From an uncultured Gemmatimonadales bacterium (GTDB lineage Bacteria; Gemmatimonadota; Gemmatimonadetes; Longimicrobiales; Gaopeijiaceae): 64,000 bases of DNA. Shown here one piece after another: positions 16,044 to 28,473 of the stretch (the first letter of the stretch is position 1; every line of letters starts with the position of its first letter). The notes beneath the pieces were generated by a model that saw only the letters and a list, made by a program, of their open reading frames with translations, searched no databases and had not been told where the DNA came from. The translations under genes and the position numbers were made by a program. The stretch lies in the NCBI GenBank assembly GCA_963809895.1, contig CAWELD010000003.1, forward strand, positions 2,528,001 to 2,592,000, written 5' to 3'.

Positions 16044-16367
16044 ATGGATCTCCTCCCCGGCACACTCGATCTCCTCGTTCTGCGCATCCTGGATGACGAG
16101 GCGCTGCACGGCTACGCCATCGCCCGGCGCATCGAGCAGCTCTCGCGAGACGAGCTCAAGGTGGAGCAGGGATCGCTGTACCCCGCGCTCTACCGCCTCG
16201 AGCGCGCGGGGCTGGTGGGCTCTGCCAAGGGGACCTCGGAGACCGGCCGGCGTGTGAAGGTCTACGCCCTCACCGCCGCGGGCCGGGCGAAGCTCGCCGA
16301 CGAGGTCGCGGGGTGGGACCGGTTCGTGAAGGCGGTGGGCCGGGTGGTACGGGGGTACGCGCCATGA
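16044..16367 (+). CDS. PadR family transcriptional regulator (acidobacterial type)
   Basis: LLPGTLDLLVL, LHGYAI, QGSLYPALYRLE, YALTAAGR; ATGA overlap with permease. Confidence 0.95.
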   Translation: MDLLPGTLDLLVLRILDDEALHGYAIARRIEQLSRDELKVEQGSLYPALYRLERAGLVGSAKGTSETGRRVKVYALTAAGRAKLADEVAGWDRFVKAVGRVVRGYAP

Positions 16368-19106
16368 GCCCGTTGCGCAGTCTCGTGTGGTGGCTCCGCA
16401 GCCGCCTGGGACGAGGTCGGATCACGCGCGAGGTGGACGAGGACATCCGGACCCACATCGAGCTGGACGCCGAGCGCCTCCGCAAAGAAGGGCTGGCCCC
16501 CGAGGAGGCCCTCCGCCGCGCCCGCGAGCGCTTCGGAAATCAGGAAGGCATCCGCCGGGAGATGCTGGCCATCGCCGCGGGAAAGCCGTCGCCCTCGAGC
16601 CACTCCCTGGCCGAGTCGGTCACGCTTCATCTGCGTCACGCCTTCCGCTCGCTCCGCGCCACCCCGGGAGCCACCGCGCTCGTCGTGGCGACCCTGTCCA
16701 TCGCCGTGGCGGTCCACACGCTCACCGTCGCCGTGGCGAACACGGTCTTCCTGGGTGACGGCGGGGTCTCGGACGCGTCGCGGGTGGTCTCGGTCTTCGG
16801 ATATTACGAGGCGCTTCCCGAGGGGCAGAGGGAGCAGCCCCTCGCCGGCCTGCAGGTCGCGCAGACGCTGAACGCCGACGCGGCGGAAGCCGTGGCGGGC
16901 TTCAAGTCGGACTACTTCAACCTGACCGGCCACGGGCGGCCTCGTCGACTGGACGGCTTGCGCACGACGCCCGGCCTGTTCCGGGTGGCGGGGGTTCGTC
17001 CGATGCTCGGACCGGGCTTCCGGGACGTGACGACCGGTGAGGAGCGGGTGGCCGTGATCTCGTGGAGCCTCTGGCAGGAGTTGGGGGCGGATCCCGAGCT
17101 GCTCGGCACCGCGCTGCAGCTCAACGGGGAGCCGTTCGCCGTGGTGGGCGTGATGCCCGAGGGCTTCGACTTTCCCCGGCGGGAGGACCTGCCCGCAACC
17201 GTGCGCCTGCCCCGCCACCCCGACATCTGGGTGCCCTACGTGCTCCCGGAGCGAGGTCCCGGTGACATGGGCGTCGTGGCGAGACTGCGCCCCGGCGCCA
17301 CGCTGGCTGCGTTCGAGGGCGACATGAAGGCCGCACTCCGGGCCTTCGCGGCATCGTTGGCCGATCGCCTGAACGGACAGGAGCTGCCCTACAACCTGCG
17401 GGCGGTGCCGCTGCGAGAGCAGGCCACGGGCCCCATCCGGCCGGCGGTGACTCTCCTCCTGGTGGCGGCGACCCTGGTCCTCCTGGTGGCCATGGGGAAC
17501 GTGACCGGTGTGGGTGTGGCCCGTGGCGAGGCCCGGGCCGGCGAGCTCGCGGTGCGCATGGCCCTGGGCTCTGGACGCCGGGGGGTCGCGGCGCTCATCG
17601 CCGCGGAGAGTCTGCTGCTCGGCTCCGTGACCGCCGTGATCGGCGTGGGCCTCGCGGCGAGTCTGGCGGCCGTGGTGCGTGACGCGGCGCCCGCGAGCAT
17701 GCCGGGCGTGGATCAGCTCCACATCCCCCTGCCCTTGATGGCGCTGGCGCTGGCCGTCTCGCTGGCGGGAGCGGGGTGCCTGGCGCTGGGGTCGGTGGCT
17801 CGCGTGCGCCGCTGGAGGCTCGGTGACGTCCTGCGCGGCAGTCGTGATGCGGGGTCCCGGGGCACCCGCCGCACGGGGCTGGCTCTCATCACCGTGGAGC
17901 TCGCTGCCACGTTGGTCCTTCTCTCGGGGTCGGTGGTGATGGTGAGGAGCGTGCTGGGGCTGCTTTCCGTGGATCCCGGCTTCGACCCGGGTCCGGTGCT
18001 CACCGCCGAGATCACCCTTCCGGAGGCGAGCTACCCCGACGAGGCGCGAACGCGGGCTGTGCAGCGAGCACAGCCGGCCGAGGGAGCCGACCCACCCGTG
18101 CCGCAATTCCAGCGGGCTCTGCTCGAACGCCTCGAGGCGCAGCCCGGAATCATGGCCGCCTCCTTCGTCCATCCCCTCCCCTTCGGCGGCGGCCAGGAGG
18201 CCAGCGTGTACTGGGTGGAGGGCCAGGAGCCCTTCGACGACCTGGCCATCGTGGACTACACCGTCGTCAGCGAGGGCTACTTCGAGAGCATGGGCATCCC
18301 GCTGCTGCAGGGACGCGAATTCACGCGGGCCGACCGGCACGACACGGAGCCCGTGGTGGTGGTGAGCCAATCCCTCGCCGACCAGTTTCCGGGCGGCAAG
18401 GCGGTGGGGGCCCGCATGAAGCTGGGCGGAGCCGCAGAAGCGCCGTATCCCTGGCTACGCGTCGTCGGGGTCGTCCCGGACGTGAAGCGCACCGACCTGG
18501 TCGAACCCCGCTCGGCCCGAGATGTACGTGCACGTCGCGCAGGGCGGCTACACCTCGCTGTCCACCTCGCGCCTGGTGGTGCGGGTGGCGGACGGCATGG
18601 CGCCGACCGATGCGGTGCCGGCGATCCGCGCCAGCCTGGCCGACATGGACCCGGACGTGCCGCTGGAGAACATCCAGTCGATGAACGATCTGTTGGCCGA
18701 CGCCACGAGCCGCGTGCGGTTCACGGCGCGGCTGGTGCTGGGATTCGCGGTGCTGTCGCTGCTCATCACCGCACTGGGGCTGTATTCGGCCGTCTCCTAC
18801 GCCGCCACGTCCCGCCGGCGGGAGCTCGCCGTGAGGGTGGCGCTGGGCGCGTCGTCGGGCGAGGTGCTGGGGACGGTGCTGGGCGAGACGGCGACGGCAC
18901 TGGTCGGGGGACTGCTCCTGGGGGCCGGCGGCGCCTACCTCACCTCGGGGTTGCTACGCGGGTTGGTATACGGCGTGGCGCCCTTCGAGCCGATATCGCT
19001 TCTGGCGGCCGTGGGGATCCTGTGCGCCACGGTGTTGCTGGCGGCGCAGGGCCCGGCCCGTACGACTCTGCGCATGGATCCGGCGAGGGTGCTGGCGCGG
19101 GATTGA
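16364..19106 (+). CDS. duplicated-domain orphan ABC permease with N-terminal prefix domain; apparent +1 frameshift at 18506-18509
   Basis: prefix REVDEDIRTHIE..ARERFGN; removing one C from CCCC joins ...DLVEP to ARPEMYVHVAQ...RRRELAVRVALGA...DPARVLARD. Confidence 0.85.
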
Positions 19107-19195
19107 GTGGCGGCGGCTGGCTTCCGCCGGGTGCGGGGCCCAAGATGGGGGAGAAGCGGAAGCGCCTCCATCTCGTGCCCGGACCCGTCTGAACG

Positions 19196-24419: not shown

Positions 24420-24920
24420 TTACGGGTGATCGGCCGGGATGATGCTCAACCGACCATCCGGCTCGACATAGGCGGCCATGCAGTCCTGGATCGAGTTGAG
24501 GCCCTGCTTGCGTAGCTCCTCCATGATTTCGTCTTCTGTGAGAAGCTCTTTGCGCGCGTTCTCGCGGACGATCTCTCCGTGCTGGATGACGGGCAGCGCT
24601 CGTTTGCGGAGGAGGGCCCGTGAAGCCGGAATGCGATACGCGACCTGGTCGATCAACCACTCCCAGAAGAGCAGGGTCCCGCCCGCGATGGCGGCGGTGC
24701 CCACGCTGGGATCGTGCCCGGTGAGGCCCAGGCGCACGGAGCTCGCGAGGAGCACCAACAGCAGGAGGTCGGAGATGGCCAGGTGGCCGAGTTGTCGCCT
24801 GGAGACCATGCGCAGTGCCAGCAGGAGCAACAAGTAGACCGCCGACACGCGCACGAAGATCTCGAGAAGCGGCGTCTGGGGGATGAAGATGCGGCCCCAC
24901 TCCACCGGGCCCAGGTGCAT
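24420..24920 (-). CDS. DUF421/YetF family membrane protein
   Basis: RRQLGHLAISDLLLLVLLA, three TMs, VIQHGEIVREN, AYVEPDGRLSII. Confidence 0.88.
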   Translation of the reverse strand: MHLGPVEWGRIFIPQTPLLEIFVRVSAVYLLLLLALRMVSRRQLGHLAISDLLLLVLLASSVRLGLTGHDPSVGTAAIAGGTLLFWEWLIDQVAYRIPASRALLRKRALPVIQHGEIVRENARKELLTEDEIMEELRKQGLNSIQDCMAAYVEPDGRLSIIPADHP

Positions 24921-24928
24921 GATTCCTC

Positions 24929-25402
24929 CTAGCTTTTCATCGAGGTCACTTGGCTCAGCGCGTCCTCTGCGGAAAGTCGCCCGACCGCGCCATTCGAATA
25001 GCTCGAGAACCGCACCTCTCCAGCCGGATCGAGGATGAACTGGGCGGGCTGTAGATACGATTTCTCGTTCTCGTGAACGAAGAGCCCGAGGCGGTCGTGC
25101 ATCGCCTCCACGTCGAGCCCGTAGAGGACGGGAAACCCCAGTTTCTGCCCCTCCTTCATCTCGCGTGCGCCGTCTTCGTCCTCCGACGACAATGCCACGA
25201 TCTGCACGGCCTCCCGGTCGAAATCCTCCAGGCGCTCATTGAAGCCGGCCAACTGCCGGCGACAGTGTGGTCACCAGTGTCCGCGGTAGAAGATGAGCAC
25301 CGCCCACACTCCCTCTACATCGTCGGGGAGCGTCATGGGCTTCCCGCCCACAGCGGCAGCTCGCACCGTGGGAAATTCGTCTCCTCGGTCGAGCATGGGC
25401 AT
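24929..25402 (-). CDS. peroxiredoxin-like (AhpC/TSA) selenoprotein, 157 aa, Sec at codon 44
   Basis: GGAGG RBS and ATG 25402; LIFYRGHW-TGA(25273-25271)-PHCRRQL reads in frame into the 24929..25252 ORF (QIVALS, FPVLY, PAQFILDPAGEVRF). Confidence 0.88.
25244..25270 (-). promoter_or_regulatory. putative bacterial SECIS element
   Basis: after UGA: CCACACUGUC-GCCGGC-AGUUG-GCCGGC; 6-bp GC stem, loop starts 16 nt after UGA, G at loop position 2. Confidence 0.65.
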
Positions 25403-25451
25403 GTCGCGTCCCTCCAACTGGGGTGTGCTTCTGAGTGCCGCGAAATAGAGA

Positions 25452-25467
25452 TGCAACGCCGGTGCCA
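25452..25467 (-). promoter_or_regulatory. sigma54 (-24/-12) promoter
   Basis: minus strand TGGCAC-CGGCG-TTGCA matches TGGCAC-N5-TTGCW, about 50 nt upstream of the selenoprotein start. Confidence 0.75.
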
Positions 25468-25573
25468 ACGGCGACCCCGCATGACACCATGGCGCTCGGC
25501 GGGGGGGCTTCGCCATCTTTTCTGGACATTGGCCATCCGGGCCTCCCTCCCAACGGGCCGAATAGGAGTAGCC

Positions 25574-26698
25574 ATGCCCGATTCCCCGGCCGGTCTCGAC
25601 CTGCAATCCGGTGACACCCTGGTTCTCGTGGGCACCACCAAGGGTGCCTTCCTGCTCCGCTCCGACGCCGATCGGCGTCGTTGGGACGTCGACGGCCCCC
25701 ACTTTCCCGGCGAGGAGGTCTATGCGCTGGCCTTCGACCAGCGGGCAGGCCGGAAGACGCTGTGGGCTTCTCCGTCCAACCCCTTCTTCGGAGCCACGCT
25801 GCGGCGTTCCGACAATGGTGGCCGCTCGTGGTCCGACAAGGACGAGCGGCCGGTGAAGTTCCCCGAGAGCTCGGGCCTCGCGCTCAAGCGTGTCTGGCAG
25901 ATCCGGCCGGGACGGGACGACGATCCGGACCGGCTCTATCTCGGTGTCGAACCCACCTGCCTGTTCGAGAGCAAAGACAACGGAGCGACCTGGGCTCCCG
26001 TCCAGGGATTCCTGGAGCACGAGCACCGACCCAAGTGGACGCCCGGAAACGGTGGCCTCTGCCTGCACACGATCCTGCCGGACCCAGCCGACCCCGAGCG
26101 CATCCTGGTCGCCTTCTCCACCGGGGGCGTGTACCGCACGGACGACGGAGGAGCCACCTGGAGGCCGCGCAACCACGGCGTGCGCGCGGAGTTCCTGCCC
26201 GACAAGCATCCGGAGTTCGGGCAATGTGTGCACAAGGTCGCCCACCATCCGTCCCGCCCCGAGCGCCTCTACCTCCAGAACCACTGGGGCCTCTATCGGA
26301 GCGATGACTGGGGCGAGTCCTGGCACGACATCGCCAACGGCGTGCCGTCGGACTTCGGTTTCCCCATGGTGGTGCACCCGCATGACCCGGACACCGCGTA
26401 CATCGTACCCCTGGAGGCTGACGCCTTCCGCTGCACACCCGAGGCCAAGCTGCGCGTCTACCGTACGCGCGACGCGGGAGCCTCCTGGGAGCCGCTGACC
26501 AGGGGACTCCCGCAGGATGGCGCCTACGAGACCGTCCTCAGGGATGGCATGGACGCCGACGATGCGGAAGACGCAGGCATCTACTTCGGCACCCGCAGCG
26601 GCAAGGTGTTCGCTTCAGCCGATTCGGGCGACTCCTGGATGCTTGTCCGGGAGGGCCTCCCCCCCGTCGTGTGCGTGAAGGCAGCAACCGTGGTATGA
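25574..26698 (+). CDS. cytoplasmic Asp-box (BNR) beta-propeller protein
   Basis: AGGAG RBS; VLVGTTKGAF; six Asp-boxes (SDNGGRSW, SKDNGATW, TDDGGATW, SDDWGESW, TRDAGASW, SADSGDSW); no signal peptide. Confidence 0.85.
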   Translation: MPDSPAGLDLQSGDTLVLVGTTKGAFLLRSDADRRRWDVDGPHFPGEEVYALAFDQRAGRKTLWASPSNPFFGATLRRSDNGGRSWSDKDERPVKFPESSGLALKRVWQIRPGRDDDPDRLYLGVEPTCLFESKDNGATWAPVQGFLEHEHRPKWTPGNGGLCLHTILPDPADPERILVAFSTGGVYRTDDGGATWRPRNHGVRAEFLPDKHPEFGQCVHKVAHHPSRPERLYLQNHWGLYRSDDWGESWHDIANGVPSDFGFPMVVHPHDPDTAYIVPLEADAFRCTPEAKLRVYRTRDAGASWEPLTRGLPQDGAYETVLRDGMDADDAEDAGIYFGTRSGKVFASADSGDSWMLVREGLPPVVCVKAATVV

Positions 26699-26982: not shown

Positions 26983-28473
26983 TCAGGGTCCCAGGGCGTC
27001 GAGTGCGGCCTCGGTGGCCTTGAAGAGGACGCGGCGCGGGATGTCACGCTCGCGCGTCCAGCGGGTGGCGGCGGTCCAGCCGTCGGGATCGGCGCCCTGG
27101 CGGCGGTTGGCGGCCACGAGGGCGGCGACGGGCTCCGGGCCCAGCTCCGGCGGCTGCCAGCCGCCGTCGTAGTGGATCCCGCCCAGCGGATCCCGGAAGA
27201 GGGCCTGTCCCGGGCCGGTCCACTCCATGCTCCAGCCGCCCTCGTGCACGAGTCGGTGATGGAAGTAGCAGAGCAGGAGGCAGTTGCCCAGCGAGGTCTC
27301 GCCGCCGTCGGCCCAGTGCACGATGTGATGGGCGTCGGTGTAGCGGAGCCCACAGCCGGGAAAGCGGCACCCGCGGTCGCGGGCCTCCAGCGCCCGGCGC
27401 AGCGCCGGGGGGATGGTGCGGGTCTTCCGGCCCACGTTCAGGATCTGTCCGGTTTCGGGCTCGTGGGTCATGTCGACCCGCCCGGCATCGCACGCCAGTC
27501 GCCGCGACGTTTCAGCTGAAACGCGGGTGCCGTCGTCCAGCTCGGAGCGGCCGGACTCGTGGGCGTCGGCCCGGAGCGTCTCGGGCTCCACGTGGAGCAC
27601 CACCTGATAGCGCTCGGCCCGGGCGCCGCTGACCGGCGCGTTCTCGTCGCCGAAGCCGACCCCGAGCGCCCGCTCCGCCAGCAGACCCAGGGCATCGGCC
27701 CGCCGCTGGGCCGCGTCCTTCCGGCGCTCGGCGTCGGTGTCGAGCTTCGGCACCCCGTGCTCCCGGACCAGGGCGTCGCTGGCCGCGTCCAGCGCCCGCA
27801 TGAGCAGCGCGCCCAGCTCCGGCGTCAGCTCACCCCGCACCTGGTAGATGCCGTCCTCGTCGGGGAAGACCGAGACCCTGCGGTTCTCGTACCGCCAGGC
27901 CTCGAACGCGGCCTCGTCACGCCCAGAGCCCCGCTTCCAGCCCCGGACCAGCCGCTCCAGCTGCGCCGTGGTGGCCCCGCGGGCCAGCTCCAGTAGATCG
28001 GTCTCGTTTTCGGGCGTGGCCACGCGCGTGAGCGCCCGCACCTGGGAGAAGGACAGCTCGCCTCGGCCCATGGCGGCGCGGGTCGCAGGCAGCCCGGCCA
28101 GGACCCGGGCTGCGCGCACCTTCTCACGGGCCGTGCTCAGATCGATGCCGATGCGGGCCGCGAGCCAGTGGGCGCAGGAGCGGTGACCGCCCAGCTCCCA
28201 GCCGCGACGGCGGTCGAAGTCGGCGATCAGGGCCAGCATGCGCTGGGTGGCGGCGTGGATGTGGGCCGCCAGCGTGGCGATCTCGTCGCCCAGCTCCTCC
28301 AGGGCGTCGGCGTCGTCGAACGGATCGACAGGGTCGGGAGGCGCCGCGGGCGCGCCCACGGCGGCATCTTCGGGCCCACCCTCGTAGCCGTCCTCGACGG
28401 CCGCCTCGCGCACGCACCACCGCGCCCGCGTATCCCGACTCCACGCACCCCCTGCATCTGCCCACCGCACCAT
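26983..28473 (-). CDS. DUF222 (13E12/Rv1128c-like) + HNH endonuclease, start uncertain
   Basis: IATLAAHIHAA, SCAHWL, GELSFSQVRALTR, VSAETSRRLACDA, RDRGCRFPGC..DAHHIVHWADGGETSLGNCLLLCYFHHRLVHEGGW. Confidence 0.88.
   Translation of the reverse strand: MVRWADAGGAWSRDTRARWCVREAAVEDGYEGGPEDAAVGAPAAPPDPVDPFDDADALEELGDEIATLAAHIHAATQRMLALIADFDRRRGWELGGHRSCAHWLAARIGIDLSTAREKVRAARVLAGLPATRAAMGRGELSFSQVRALTRVATPENETDLLELARGATTAQLERLVRGWKRGSGRDEAAFEAWRYENRRVSVFPDEDGIYQVRGELTPELGALLMRALDAASDALVREHGVPKLDTDAERRKDAAQRRADALGLLAERALGVGFGDENAPVSGARAERYQVVLHVEPETLRADAHESGRSELDDGTRVSAETSRRLACDAGRVDMTHEPETGQILNVGRKTRTIPPALRRALEARDRGCRFPGCGLRYTDAHHIVHWADGGETSLGNCLLLCYFHHRLVHEGGWSMEWTGPGQALFRDPLGGIHYDGGWQPPELGPEPVAALVAANRRQGADPDGWTAATRWTRERDIPRRVLFKATEAALDALGP
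27508..27523. repeat. perfect 16-bp palindrome inside the HNH gene
   Basis: CGTTTCAGCTGAAACG; near-identical copy at 28664-28679. Confidence 0.9.

What the first reader, a model, noticed from the sequence alone, without database searches (positions are those of the whole stretch)
24929..25402. Hidden selenoprotein: peroxiredoxin-like gene with a UxxC active site
Seen: the minus strand reads TTC TAC CGC GGA CAC TGG TGA CCA CAC TGT CGC CGG CAG TTG = FYRGHW-*-PHCRRQL. The ORF track splits this into a 43-aa tail (25271..26383) and a separate 107-aa ORF, but both are in one frame with a good RBS and ATG at 25402. Known: AhpC/TSA-like thioredoxin-fold proteins carry W-C-P-x-C here, and Sec replacing the first Cys is a recognised selenoprotein pattern. 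Inference: the TGA is read as Sec44, so the organism should encode selA/selB/selC/selD.
Basis: partly seen in the sequence, partly recalled or inferred. Interest (0 to 1): 0.85.

Follow-up and report, generated by a model that had tools for sequence, protein, structure and literature searches.

The report
Hidden selenocysteine redox enzyme, known family
The apparent stop codon inside this small bacterial redox gene almost certainly codes for selenocysteine, so two annotated fragments are really one selenium enzyme; it is well supported but belongs to an already listed family of predicted selenoproteins.

Summary
Window 25402→24929 (−) is one 157-codon gene with a single in-frame TGA at codon 44 (W-U-P-H-C). 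The genome encodes selA, selB, selD and tRNA-Sec. Among 95 close homologues, codon 44 is TGA in 22 and Cys in 73, never anything else. All 22 TGA copies carry a 6-bp hairpin (loop AGUUG) 16 nt downstream, with compensatory changes at 4 of 6 pairs; 0 of 73 Cys copies form it. It fits the published bacterial SECIS model. All 14 genomes with a close TGA copy have selA or tRNA-Sec. One refinement: this is not a true peroxiredoxin. It lacks the Prx Pro, Thr and Arg and fits the listed 'Prx-like thiol:disulfide oxidoreductase (PF00578, UxxC)' family, with a PRXL2-type Arg40. No substrate, expression or selenium incorporation was shown. Side result: the Cys forms of this subfamily nest among Sec forms, suggesting Sec→Cys reversions. 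The scan has reported this kind of gene four times on other genomes. Verdict: real, new member of a known kind, low-to-moderate interest.

The parts
24929..25402 (-). Coding sequence of a 157-aa Prx-like (PF00578) UxxC selenoprotein, ATG 25402 to TAG 24931-24929
   Evidence: thioredoxin/Prx fold model pLDDT 90.5, best structural match Z 22.2, rmsd 2.1, 151 aligned
25411..25415 (-). Shine-Dalgarno-like GGAGG, 8 nt before the ATG
   Evidence: seen in sequence
25271..25273 (-). In-frame TGA, codon 44, predicted selenocysteine (first position of UxxC)
   Evidence: TGA in 22 and TGC/TGT in 73 of 95 close homologues
25262..25264 (-). Cys47, second position of UxxC, predicted resolving residue; aligns with the peroxidatic Cys of Prx
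   Evidence: invariant in 95 of 95; alignment
25244..25260 (-). Predicted bacterial SECIS: 6-bp stem with 5-nt loop AGUUG (25254-25250), loop 16 nt after the UGA, G at loop position 2
   Evidence: 6 of 6 pairs in 22 of 22 TGA copies, 0 of 73 Cys copies; 4 of 6 pairs covary; -11.5 kcal/mol; fits the model in PMC13188914
25250..25252 (-). Leu51 TTG codon inside the SECIS loop, which gene callers use as a false start for a 107-aa fragment
   Evidence: TTG in 22 of 22 TGA copies vs 5 of 73 Cys copies and 5.2% of genome Leu codons; 7 of 13 database homologues begin at this position
25283..25285 (-). Arg40, four residues before Sec44, where Prx has Pro; same spacing as Arg40/Cys44/Cys47 of human PGFS (PRXL2B)
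   Evidence: invariant in 95 of 95
25046..25048 (-). Pro119, at the thioredoxin-fold proline position where Prx has its catalytic Arg
   Evidence: aligns with Prx Arg and with the Pro of a TlpA/ResA-like paralogue; Pro, Ala or Ser and never Arg in the 94 of 95 homologues with a residue there

Best explanation
This is one functional gene for a cytoplasmic 157-aa thioredoxin-fold oxidoreductase of the 'Prx-like thiol:disulfide oxidoreductase' (PF00578, UxxC; PRX_like2/PRXL2-type) selenoprotein family. Shown here: the intact frame, the complete Sec machinery, the Cys/TGA pairing and a covarying hairpin that occurs only with TGA. Inferred from established bacterial Sec decoding: SelB-GTP-Sec-tRNA binds the AGUUG hairpin and delivers Sec to UGA44; without selenium the ribosome would stop after 43 residues. 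Inferred from the fold and residues: the Sec44 selenolate at the start of the active-site helix is the attacking nucleophile, helped by the invariant Arg40. Cys47 resolves it to a selenenylsulfide, which a cellular thiol system (thioredoxin/NADPH or similar) re-reduces. The substrate is most likely a protein disulfide or an organic (endo)peroxide, handled by a thioredoxin-style dithiol cycle and not by the Prx catalytic triad. Confidence is about 0.96 for Sec decoding and about 0.8 for the thioredoxin-style UxxC chemistry; the substrate is not determined.
For: Sec machinery in G000: selA 540 bits, selB 322 bits, selD 374 bits with its own in-frame TGA, tRNA-Sec 76.6 bits with anticodon TCA. 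TGA is the usual stop in this genome (1515 of 1983 long ORFs) and the only tRNA-Trp found has anticodon CCA, so this is site-specific recoding. Codon 44 is TGA or Cys in 95 of 95 close homologues. Hairpin: 126 of 126 cells paired in 21 distinct rows, 16 double-sided changes, 0 of 500 shuffles as high, best slid register 49%; RNAalifold predicts the same 6 pairs unaided. The 3' arm changes alter amino acids (L-A-G, L-V-D, L-A-D, L-G-D), so the RNA structure constrains the protein. All 14 genomes with a close TGA copy have selA (13 of 14) or tRNA-Sec (12 of 14). Four other genes of G000 have an in-frame TGA in known Sec motifs with downstream hairpins. The Prx Pro, Thr and Arg are absent. The family is listed as 'predicted with high confidence' in PMC13188914 Table 1.
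Against: No protein, selenium-labelling or RNA evidence was obtained. Folded alone, the region is no more stable than shuffles (z -0.37 to +0.38), so the SECIS call rests on comparison. The lower stem seen in several orthologues is poorly paired in this copy. Four of 22 orthologue hairpins, scored as the bare 6-bp stem, are slightly weaker than the model's -7.5 kcal/mol (-7.3 three times, -6.7 once). The homologues are related, so the counts are not independent events. The best structural matches are true peroxiredoxins (BcpB Z 22.2, AhpE Z 21.7), ahead of ResA (16.8) and PGFS (15.5). No NCBIfam model reaches its cut-off. One paper on cyanobacterial PRX-like proteins infers that they are not disulfide oxidoreductases (PMC3514251 passages). 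G327 has Sec machinery but a Cys form. One genome with a TGA paralogue, G026 (78% complete), showed neither selA nor tRNA-Sec.
Confidence: 0.9

Rival explanations
1. The gene is a real selenoprotein, but it works as a peroxiredoxin-type peroxidase: Cys47 is peroxidatic and Sec44 plays the Thr's role or acts as a fast resolving residue, with Arg40 or Arg142 standing in for the missing catalytic Arg.
For: The closest solved folds and sequences are Prx enzymes. Cys47 aligns with the peroxidatic Cys. Arg40 and Arg142 are invariant or nearly so. The related human PGFS reduces an endoperoxide (PMC12938796 passages).
Against: The Prx Pro, Thr/Ser and Arg are all replaced. Sec normally replaces the attacking residue (recalled). 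In PGFS the first Cys of CxxC is the one modelled next to the peroxide. The genome has a separate Prx-type gene with Sec at the peroxidatic position.
Confidence: 0.06
2. The TGA is a real stop: the gene is a pseudogene or is split into a 43-aa peptide and a separate 107-aa protein starting at TTG 25252.
For: Gene callers annotate the 107-aa piece on this contig and in relatives. No expression was seen.
Against: The TGA is kept at the same codon in 22 loci down to 34-57% protein identity, both halves stay intact, and a TGA-specific hairpin covaries. The 107-aa piece lacks the redox motif, and no Shine-Dalgarno-like sequence precedes its TTG.
Confidence: 0.02
3. The TGA is an assembly or sequencing error, or the organism reads TGA as Trp/Gly/Cys genome-wide.
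For: The genome is an assembly with no raw reads seen here.
Against: Three runs' contigs show no other letter at the codon. Orthologues in 13 other genomes share the TGA. TGA ends 1515 of 1983 long ORFs. The only TCA-anticodon tRNA found is a Sec-type tRNA.
Confidence: 0.01

Closest known systems
Prx-like thiol:disulfide oxidoreductase selenoprotein family (PF00578; UxxC/UxxU; 'Prx-like 1' in the GOS survey)
   Same: PF00578 domain, single Sec in a UxxC motif, Cys-containing homologues, in-frame bSECIS. Listed in PMC13188914 Table 1, PMC9312934, PMC2398784 Table 2 (225 selenoprotein sequences) and PMC1794560.
   Different: I could not align it to the papers' representative (WP_010940744.1), so the exact subfamily is not fixed. 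The organisms named for the family in the passage seen are anaerobic Deltaproteobacteria; this subfamily is patchy in another phylum (10 of 401 genomes).
PRX_like2 / PRXL2 proteins, including human prostamide/prostaglandin F synthase (PRXL2B)
   Same: CxxC-type motif whose second Cys matches the Prx peroxidatic Cys, lack of the other Prx triad residues (definition in PMC3514251 passages), Arg four residues before the first Cys, and a Pro at the thioredoxin proline position.
   Different: Sec replaces the first Cys. The structural match to PGFS is only middling (Z 15.5, rmsd 2.6, 140 aligned, 14% identity). CDD cd02970 could not be searched, and the cd02970 selenoprotein entry in the review has a UxxS motif.
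True peroxiredoxins, including Sec-Prx (TxxU)
   Same: Same fold; best structural and sequence neighbours.
   Different: Prx has PxxxT/SxxC plus a distant Arg, and Sec-Prx carries Sec at the peroxidatic position. Here Sec is at the Thr position, Pro is Arg40 and the Arg is Pro119.
SelL-related redox protein (NF040769)
   Same: Weak match over the active-site region (36.5 bits, E 3.6e-9).
   Different: Far below the cut-off of 120 bits. SelL has UxxU (recalled); this has UxxC.

Membership tests
Bacterial selenoprotein (UGA-Sec recoding) | In-frame UGA aligned with Cys in homologues | tested here: met
   22 TGA and 73 TGC/TGT of 95 close homologues
Bacterial selenoprotein (UGA-Sec recoding) | selA, selB, selC and selD in the genome | tested here: met
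   all over the curated cut-offs
Bacterial selenoprotein (UGA-Sec recoding) | bSECIS: 3-9 nt loop, 4-16 bp stem, G in first two loop positions, 16-37 nt spacing, energy <= -7.5 kcal/mol | tested here: met
   5-nt loop, 6 bp, G at position 2, spacing 16, -11.5 kcal/mol; criteria from PMC13188914; covariation
Bacterial selenoprotein (UGA-Sec recoding) | Selenium actually incorporated at codon 44 | not testable with these tools
   needs 75Se labelling or mass spectrometry
Prx-like thiol:disulfide oxidoreductase (PF00578, UxxC) | PF00578 domain | tested here: met
   78.7 bits against cut-off 26, residues 7-132
Prx-like thiol:disulfide oxidoreductase (PF00578, UxxC) | UxxC or UxxU motif | tested here: met
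   U44-P-H-C47; Cys47 invariant in 95 of 95
Prx-like thiol:disulfide oxidoreductase (PF00578, UxxC) | Clusters with the family's published representative sequence | not tested
   the representative accession was not fetched
PRX_like2 / PRXL2 | CxxC-type motif with second Cys at the Prx peroxidatic position and the other two triad residues missing | tested here: met
   definition from PMC3514251 passages
PRX_like2 / PRXL2 | Scores against the CDD model cd02970 | not testable with these tools
   CDD is not among the libraries offered
Peroxiredoxin (true Prx, incl. Sec-Prx TxxU) | PxxxT/SxxC(U) active-site motif | tested here: not met
   Arg40 at the Pro position and Sec/Cys44 at the Thr position in 95 of 95
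Peroxiredoxin (true Prx, incl. Sec-Prx TxxU) | Distant catalytic Arg | tested here: not met
   position 119 is Pro, Ala or Ser in 94 of 95 and a gap in 1; aligned to the Prx Arg
Peroxiredoxin (true Prx, incl. Sec-Prx TxxU) | Prx variant of the thioredoxin fold | tested here: met
   Z 22.2, rmsd 2.1, 151 aligned to BcpB
SelL-related redox protein (NF040769) | Score over the 120-bit cut-off | tested here: not met
   36.5 bits

The most novel reading that the evidence does not exclude
This gene belongs to a distinct, so far unnamed cytoplasmic subfamily (motifs RGHW-U-xHCRRQL and YSxGxVGRL) in which selenocysteine is ancestral and the many Cys versions arose by two or more Sec-to-Cys reversions that also lost the SECIS, the less common direction for the family. 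With its PGFS-like Arg40, it would be a bacterial selenium counterpart of PRXL2 enzymes that reduces organic endo- or hydroperoxides, and its minimal 17-nt SECIS visibly steers protein evolution. Support: in a rooted tree the Cys forms nest among Sec forms, and monophyly of the Sec forms is rejected (p-AU 0.0026; same pattern). Caveats: only 15 of 22 Sec and 12 of 73 Cys rows were used, the test was chosen after seeing a first tree, the basal branches are not strongly supported, and repeated Cys-to-Sec gains or gene transfer were not excluded.
Probability: 0.3. Interest if true: 0.45.

Novelty: new member of a known kind. Interest (0 to 1): 0.25.

Why it matters
It corrects an annotation: databases hold this gene and its relatives as 89-111-aa fragments with no active site (12 of 13 hits), 7 of them starting at the SECIS-loop codon. 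The family is only 'predicted' in the 2026 review, so a small, soluble member with natural Cys counterparts and a compact covarying SECIS is a convenient test case for what Prx-like UxxC proteins reduce and what Sec adds. It also shows Sec use is common in this lineage (39 of 61 related genomes have tRNA-Sec). It does not reveal a new mechanism.

Tried and rejected
Single-sequence folding gave no signal over shuffles, so it was not used as support. Rfam had no meaningful match in 24500-25800; the one hit was E 0.53, 14.7 bits against a gathering score of 45. The promoter scan found 0 sigma-70-like sites and 2 terminator-like sites, the same as chance. No NCBIfam family reached its cut-off for the protein. 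The genome-contig scan returned 77 Cys and 1 Thr of 78 loci, but one seed peptide contained Cys at that position, so it could not fairly sample TGA copies and was not used for the Sec/Cys ratio. Gene neighbourhood: no neighbour was shared widely among the 22 TGA loci within up to about 1.5 kb; shared neighbours were limited to pairs of loci, so the downstream DUF421 and nitroreductase genes give no functional clue. No RNA holder was listed among sequencing runs. Run X4's contig ends 4 bases beyond the codon and was not counted. My first genome-wide TGA scan was too strict and missed both this gene and selD; the relaxed scan recovered both; neither is a complete selenoproteome. Two followed-up sites were rejected: C3:488985, which looks like an ordinary stop between two genes, and the duplicated C3:937945/936173 site, a 47-codon frame with no support. 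The ESM Atlas gave no result for this protein. Global TGA reassignment and true-Prx membership were considered and rejected (see rivals). Literature searches for PRXL2+selenocysteine+bacteria found 0 papers; Gemmatimonad(ota)+selenocysteine found 8 and 5 papers, none on this protein by title or abstract; a search for experimental work on Prx-like selenoproteins listed 3 papers, none such by title or abstract. Subscription journals and the papers' supplementary sequence sets were not seen and may already list members of this subfamily.

Full report
Observation. The minus strand from 25402 to 24929 is one reading frame of 157 codons with a single internal stop, TGA at 25273-25271 (codon 44), followed by P-H-C and ending in TAG. 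GGAGG lies 8 nt before ATG 25402. Five other close orthologues complete at the 5' end have ATG or GTG exactly 43 codons before their TGA; a sixth is cut by its contig end. The read-through product scores 78.7 bits on PF00578 over residues 7-132, across the TGA. It folds as a confident thioredoxin/Prx-type domain (pLDDT 90.5, pTM 0.88, 7-sequence alignment).

Is the TGA real? Contigs of four public DNA runs were laid on 24800-25500. Three span the codon well inside their ends and list no other letter there. One of them differs at 16 other places and by one deleted base, but not at all between 25235 and 25364. The fourth ends 4 bases past the codon and was not counted. These are contigs, not raw reads, and one run may be the source sample. 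Stronger evidence is the orthologues: 13 other genomes carry the same in-frame TGA.

Sec machinery. Genome G000 (95% complete) has selA (540 bits), selB (322 bits), selD (374 bits, itself with one in-frame TGA) and tRNA-Sec (76.6 bits, anticodon TCA). TGA is still the main stop codon (1515 of 1983 long ORFs), so recoding is site-specific. Of the 14 genomes with a close TGA copy, 13 have selA, 12 have tRNA-Sec and all 14 have at least one. A more distant paralogous group, with longer N-termini, has TGA at the same codon in 19 genomes; 18 of these have selA or tRNA-Sec, and the exception, G026, is 78% complete. Family f2 has neither gene in 12 of 12 genomes and none of its listed matches has a TGA, though it also lacks close orthologues, so this is a weak control. 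G327 has the machinery and a Cys version. Kin are not independent, so these counts are descriptive.

Cys/Sec pairing and SECIS. I pooled 96 loci (7, 9, 80) and dropped one duplicate (L132 = L027), leaving 95. Codon 44 is TGA in 22 and TGC/TGT in 73. One search kept only the best 80 of 509 confirmed stretches and one of its two seed patterns contained Cys, so the ratio is not a census. In all 22 TGA copies a 6-bp stem closes the loop AGUUG 16 nt after the UGA; none of the 73 Cys copies forms more than 4 of the 6 pairs. In 21 distinct rows all 126 cells pair, 4 of 6 pairs show double-sided changes (16 cells), 0 of 500 shuffles reach the paired fraction or covariation score, and slid registers reach at most 49%. 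RNAalifold predicts the same six pairs without guidance. Several 3'-arm changes are non-synonymous, so the RNA structure constrains the protein. The loop's Leu codon is TTG in 22 of 22 TGA copies, against 5 of 73 Cys copies and 5.2% of Leu codons genome-wide. The hairpin meets all four criteria of the published bSECIS model (PMC13188914, section 5 read whole), at -11.5 kcal/mol. Against: folded alone the region is not unusual (z -0.37 to +0.38), the lower stem of some orthologues is weak here, and 4 of 22 bare hairpins score -6.7 to -7.3. The loop TTG also explains the misannotation: 7 of 13 database homologues start at that position, and a 107-aa call is on record for a contig of the same length as the window's contig.

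What kind of enzyme. The nearest solved structures are peroxiredoxins (BcpB Z 22.2, rmsd 2.1, 151 aligned; AhpE Z 21.7; ResA Z 16.8; human PGFS Z 15.5). The active site is not a Prx site. In alignments with archaeal Prx, Cys47 matches the peroxidatic Cys, Sec44 the Thr, Arg40 the Pro and Pro119 the catalytic Arg. Across the 95 homologues Arg40, Gly41, Trp43 and Cys47 are invariant and position 119 is Pro, Ala or Ser, never Arg. Pro119 aligns with the proline of a TlpA/ResA-like paralogue. This matches the PRX-like2 description (PMC3514251, passages) and the Arg40/Cys44/Cys47 layout of human PGFS/PRXL2B, where Arg40 gives positive charge near the motif and the first Cys is modelled next to the endoperoxide (PMC12938796, abstract and passages). 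The most likely mechanism (inferred) is a thioredoxin-style cycle: Sec44 selenolate attacks a disulfide or organic peroxide, Cys47 resolves it to a selenenylsulfide, and a cellular reductant resets it. No signal peptide is evident in the 157-aa sequence (by inspection). The authors of PMC3514251 inferred that PRX-like proteins are not disulfide oxidoreductases, so the substrate class is open. The gene is followed 8 nt later by a DUF421 gene and then a nitroreductase on the same strand, and faces a BNR-repeat gene and a ThiS-family gene divergently, but no neighbour is conserved among the 22 TGA loci.

Comparison with what is known. 'Prx-like thiol:disulfide oxidoreductase, PF00578, UxxC/UxxU' is listed as predicted with high confidence in the 2026 review (PMC13188914, section 7 part 1 of 3) and in PMC9312934 (passages). 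'Prx-like 1' (pfam00578, UxxC) had 225 selenoprotein sequences in the GOS survey (PMC2398784, passages). PMC1794560 (passages) lists the family in several anaerobes and reports Cys-to-Sec as the commoner conversion. No supplements were read. The testable features of that family are met; true-Prx membership fails; no NCBIfam model reaches cut-off. Earlier AI notes of this scan describe four similar genes in other genomes and a different Sec-Prx gene in this genome; none matched this stretch by sequence. The phylum name Gemmatimonadota comes from one of those notes and was not tested here.

Evolutionary side result. The close subfamily is patchy: 10 of 401 genomes of the phylum at E <= 1e-22. 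In a 67-row tree and a 35-row rooted tree its Cys forms lie inside a supported clade that also holds Sec forms, with other Sec forms branching outside. An AU test rejects a single Sec-only clade (p 0.0026; 15 of 22 Sec rows, 12 of 73 Cys rows, 8 outgroup rows). The simplest reading is ancestral Sec with two or more reversions to Cys. The test was chosen after seeing the first tree, and repeated gains or transfer are not excluded.

Verdict. It is a new member of a known, computationally defined family, with unusually clean comparative support for its SECIS. Interest 0.25.

Noticed in passing
G000:C3:3207072 (+), L010: selD itself has an in-frame TGA (G-A-G-U-A-C-K) with a 7-bp hairpin whose loop starts 14 nt downstream, slightly closer than the 16-37 nt model.
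   Followed up: partly
G000:C3:841607 (+), L221: AhpD/CMD-family gene (PF02627) with an in-frame TGA in a CxxU motif and a hairpin 16 nt downstream; likely selenoprotein.
   Followed up: partly
G000:C3:2000822 (-), L222: Molybdopterin oxidoreductase (formate dehydrogenase alpha-like) with an in-frame TGA in a U-H-x-P motif and a downstream hairpin; likely selenoprotein.
   Followed up: partly
   Followed up: partly
L029-L041, L043, L045-L049: A second, paralogous group of R-G-x-W-U-x-x-C genes with longer N-termini in 19 related genomes, with a different hairpin further from the UGA; not found in G000 with this query.
   Followed up: partly
G000:C10:356346-358464 (+): An array of 17 tRNA genes on one strand within about 2.1 kb.
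   Followed up: no
G000:C3:1254663-1255015 (-), near selB at 1258597-1259712: The tmRNA gene lies within about 4 kb of the selB match; selA, selB, selC and selD are otherwise scattered, not in one operon.
   Followed up: no
G000:C3:937945 and 936173 (-): Two identical stretches about 1.8 kb apart, each with a TGA followed by G-C in a 47-codon frame; looks like a local duplication, no evidence for a gene.
   Followed up: partly
window 25241-25303: Short stretches of unrelated contigs in all four runs match only this active-site and hairpin region at 88% or more identity, showing nucleotide-level similarity in other organisms' DNA.
   Followed up: no
window 16313-19192 (+): An ABC-transporter-permease-like gene appears frameshifted near 18500: the long frame loses protein-like sequence and a second frame (18522-19106) carries a typical C-terminus (judged by eye).
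   Followed up: no
window 26983-28400 (-): An ORF that looks like an HNH endonuclease/DUF222-type protein (family recalled, not searched) next to the ThiS gene.
   Followed up: no
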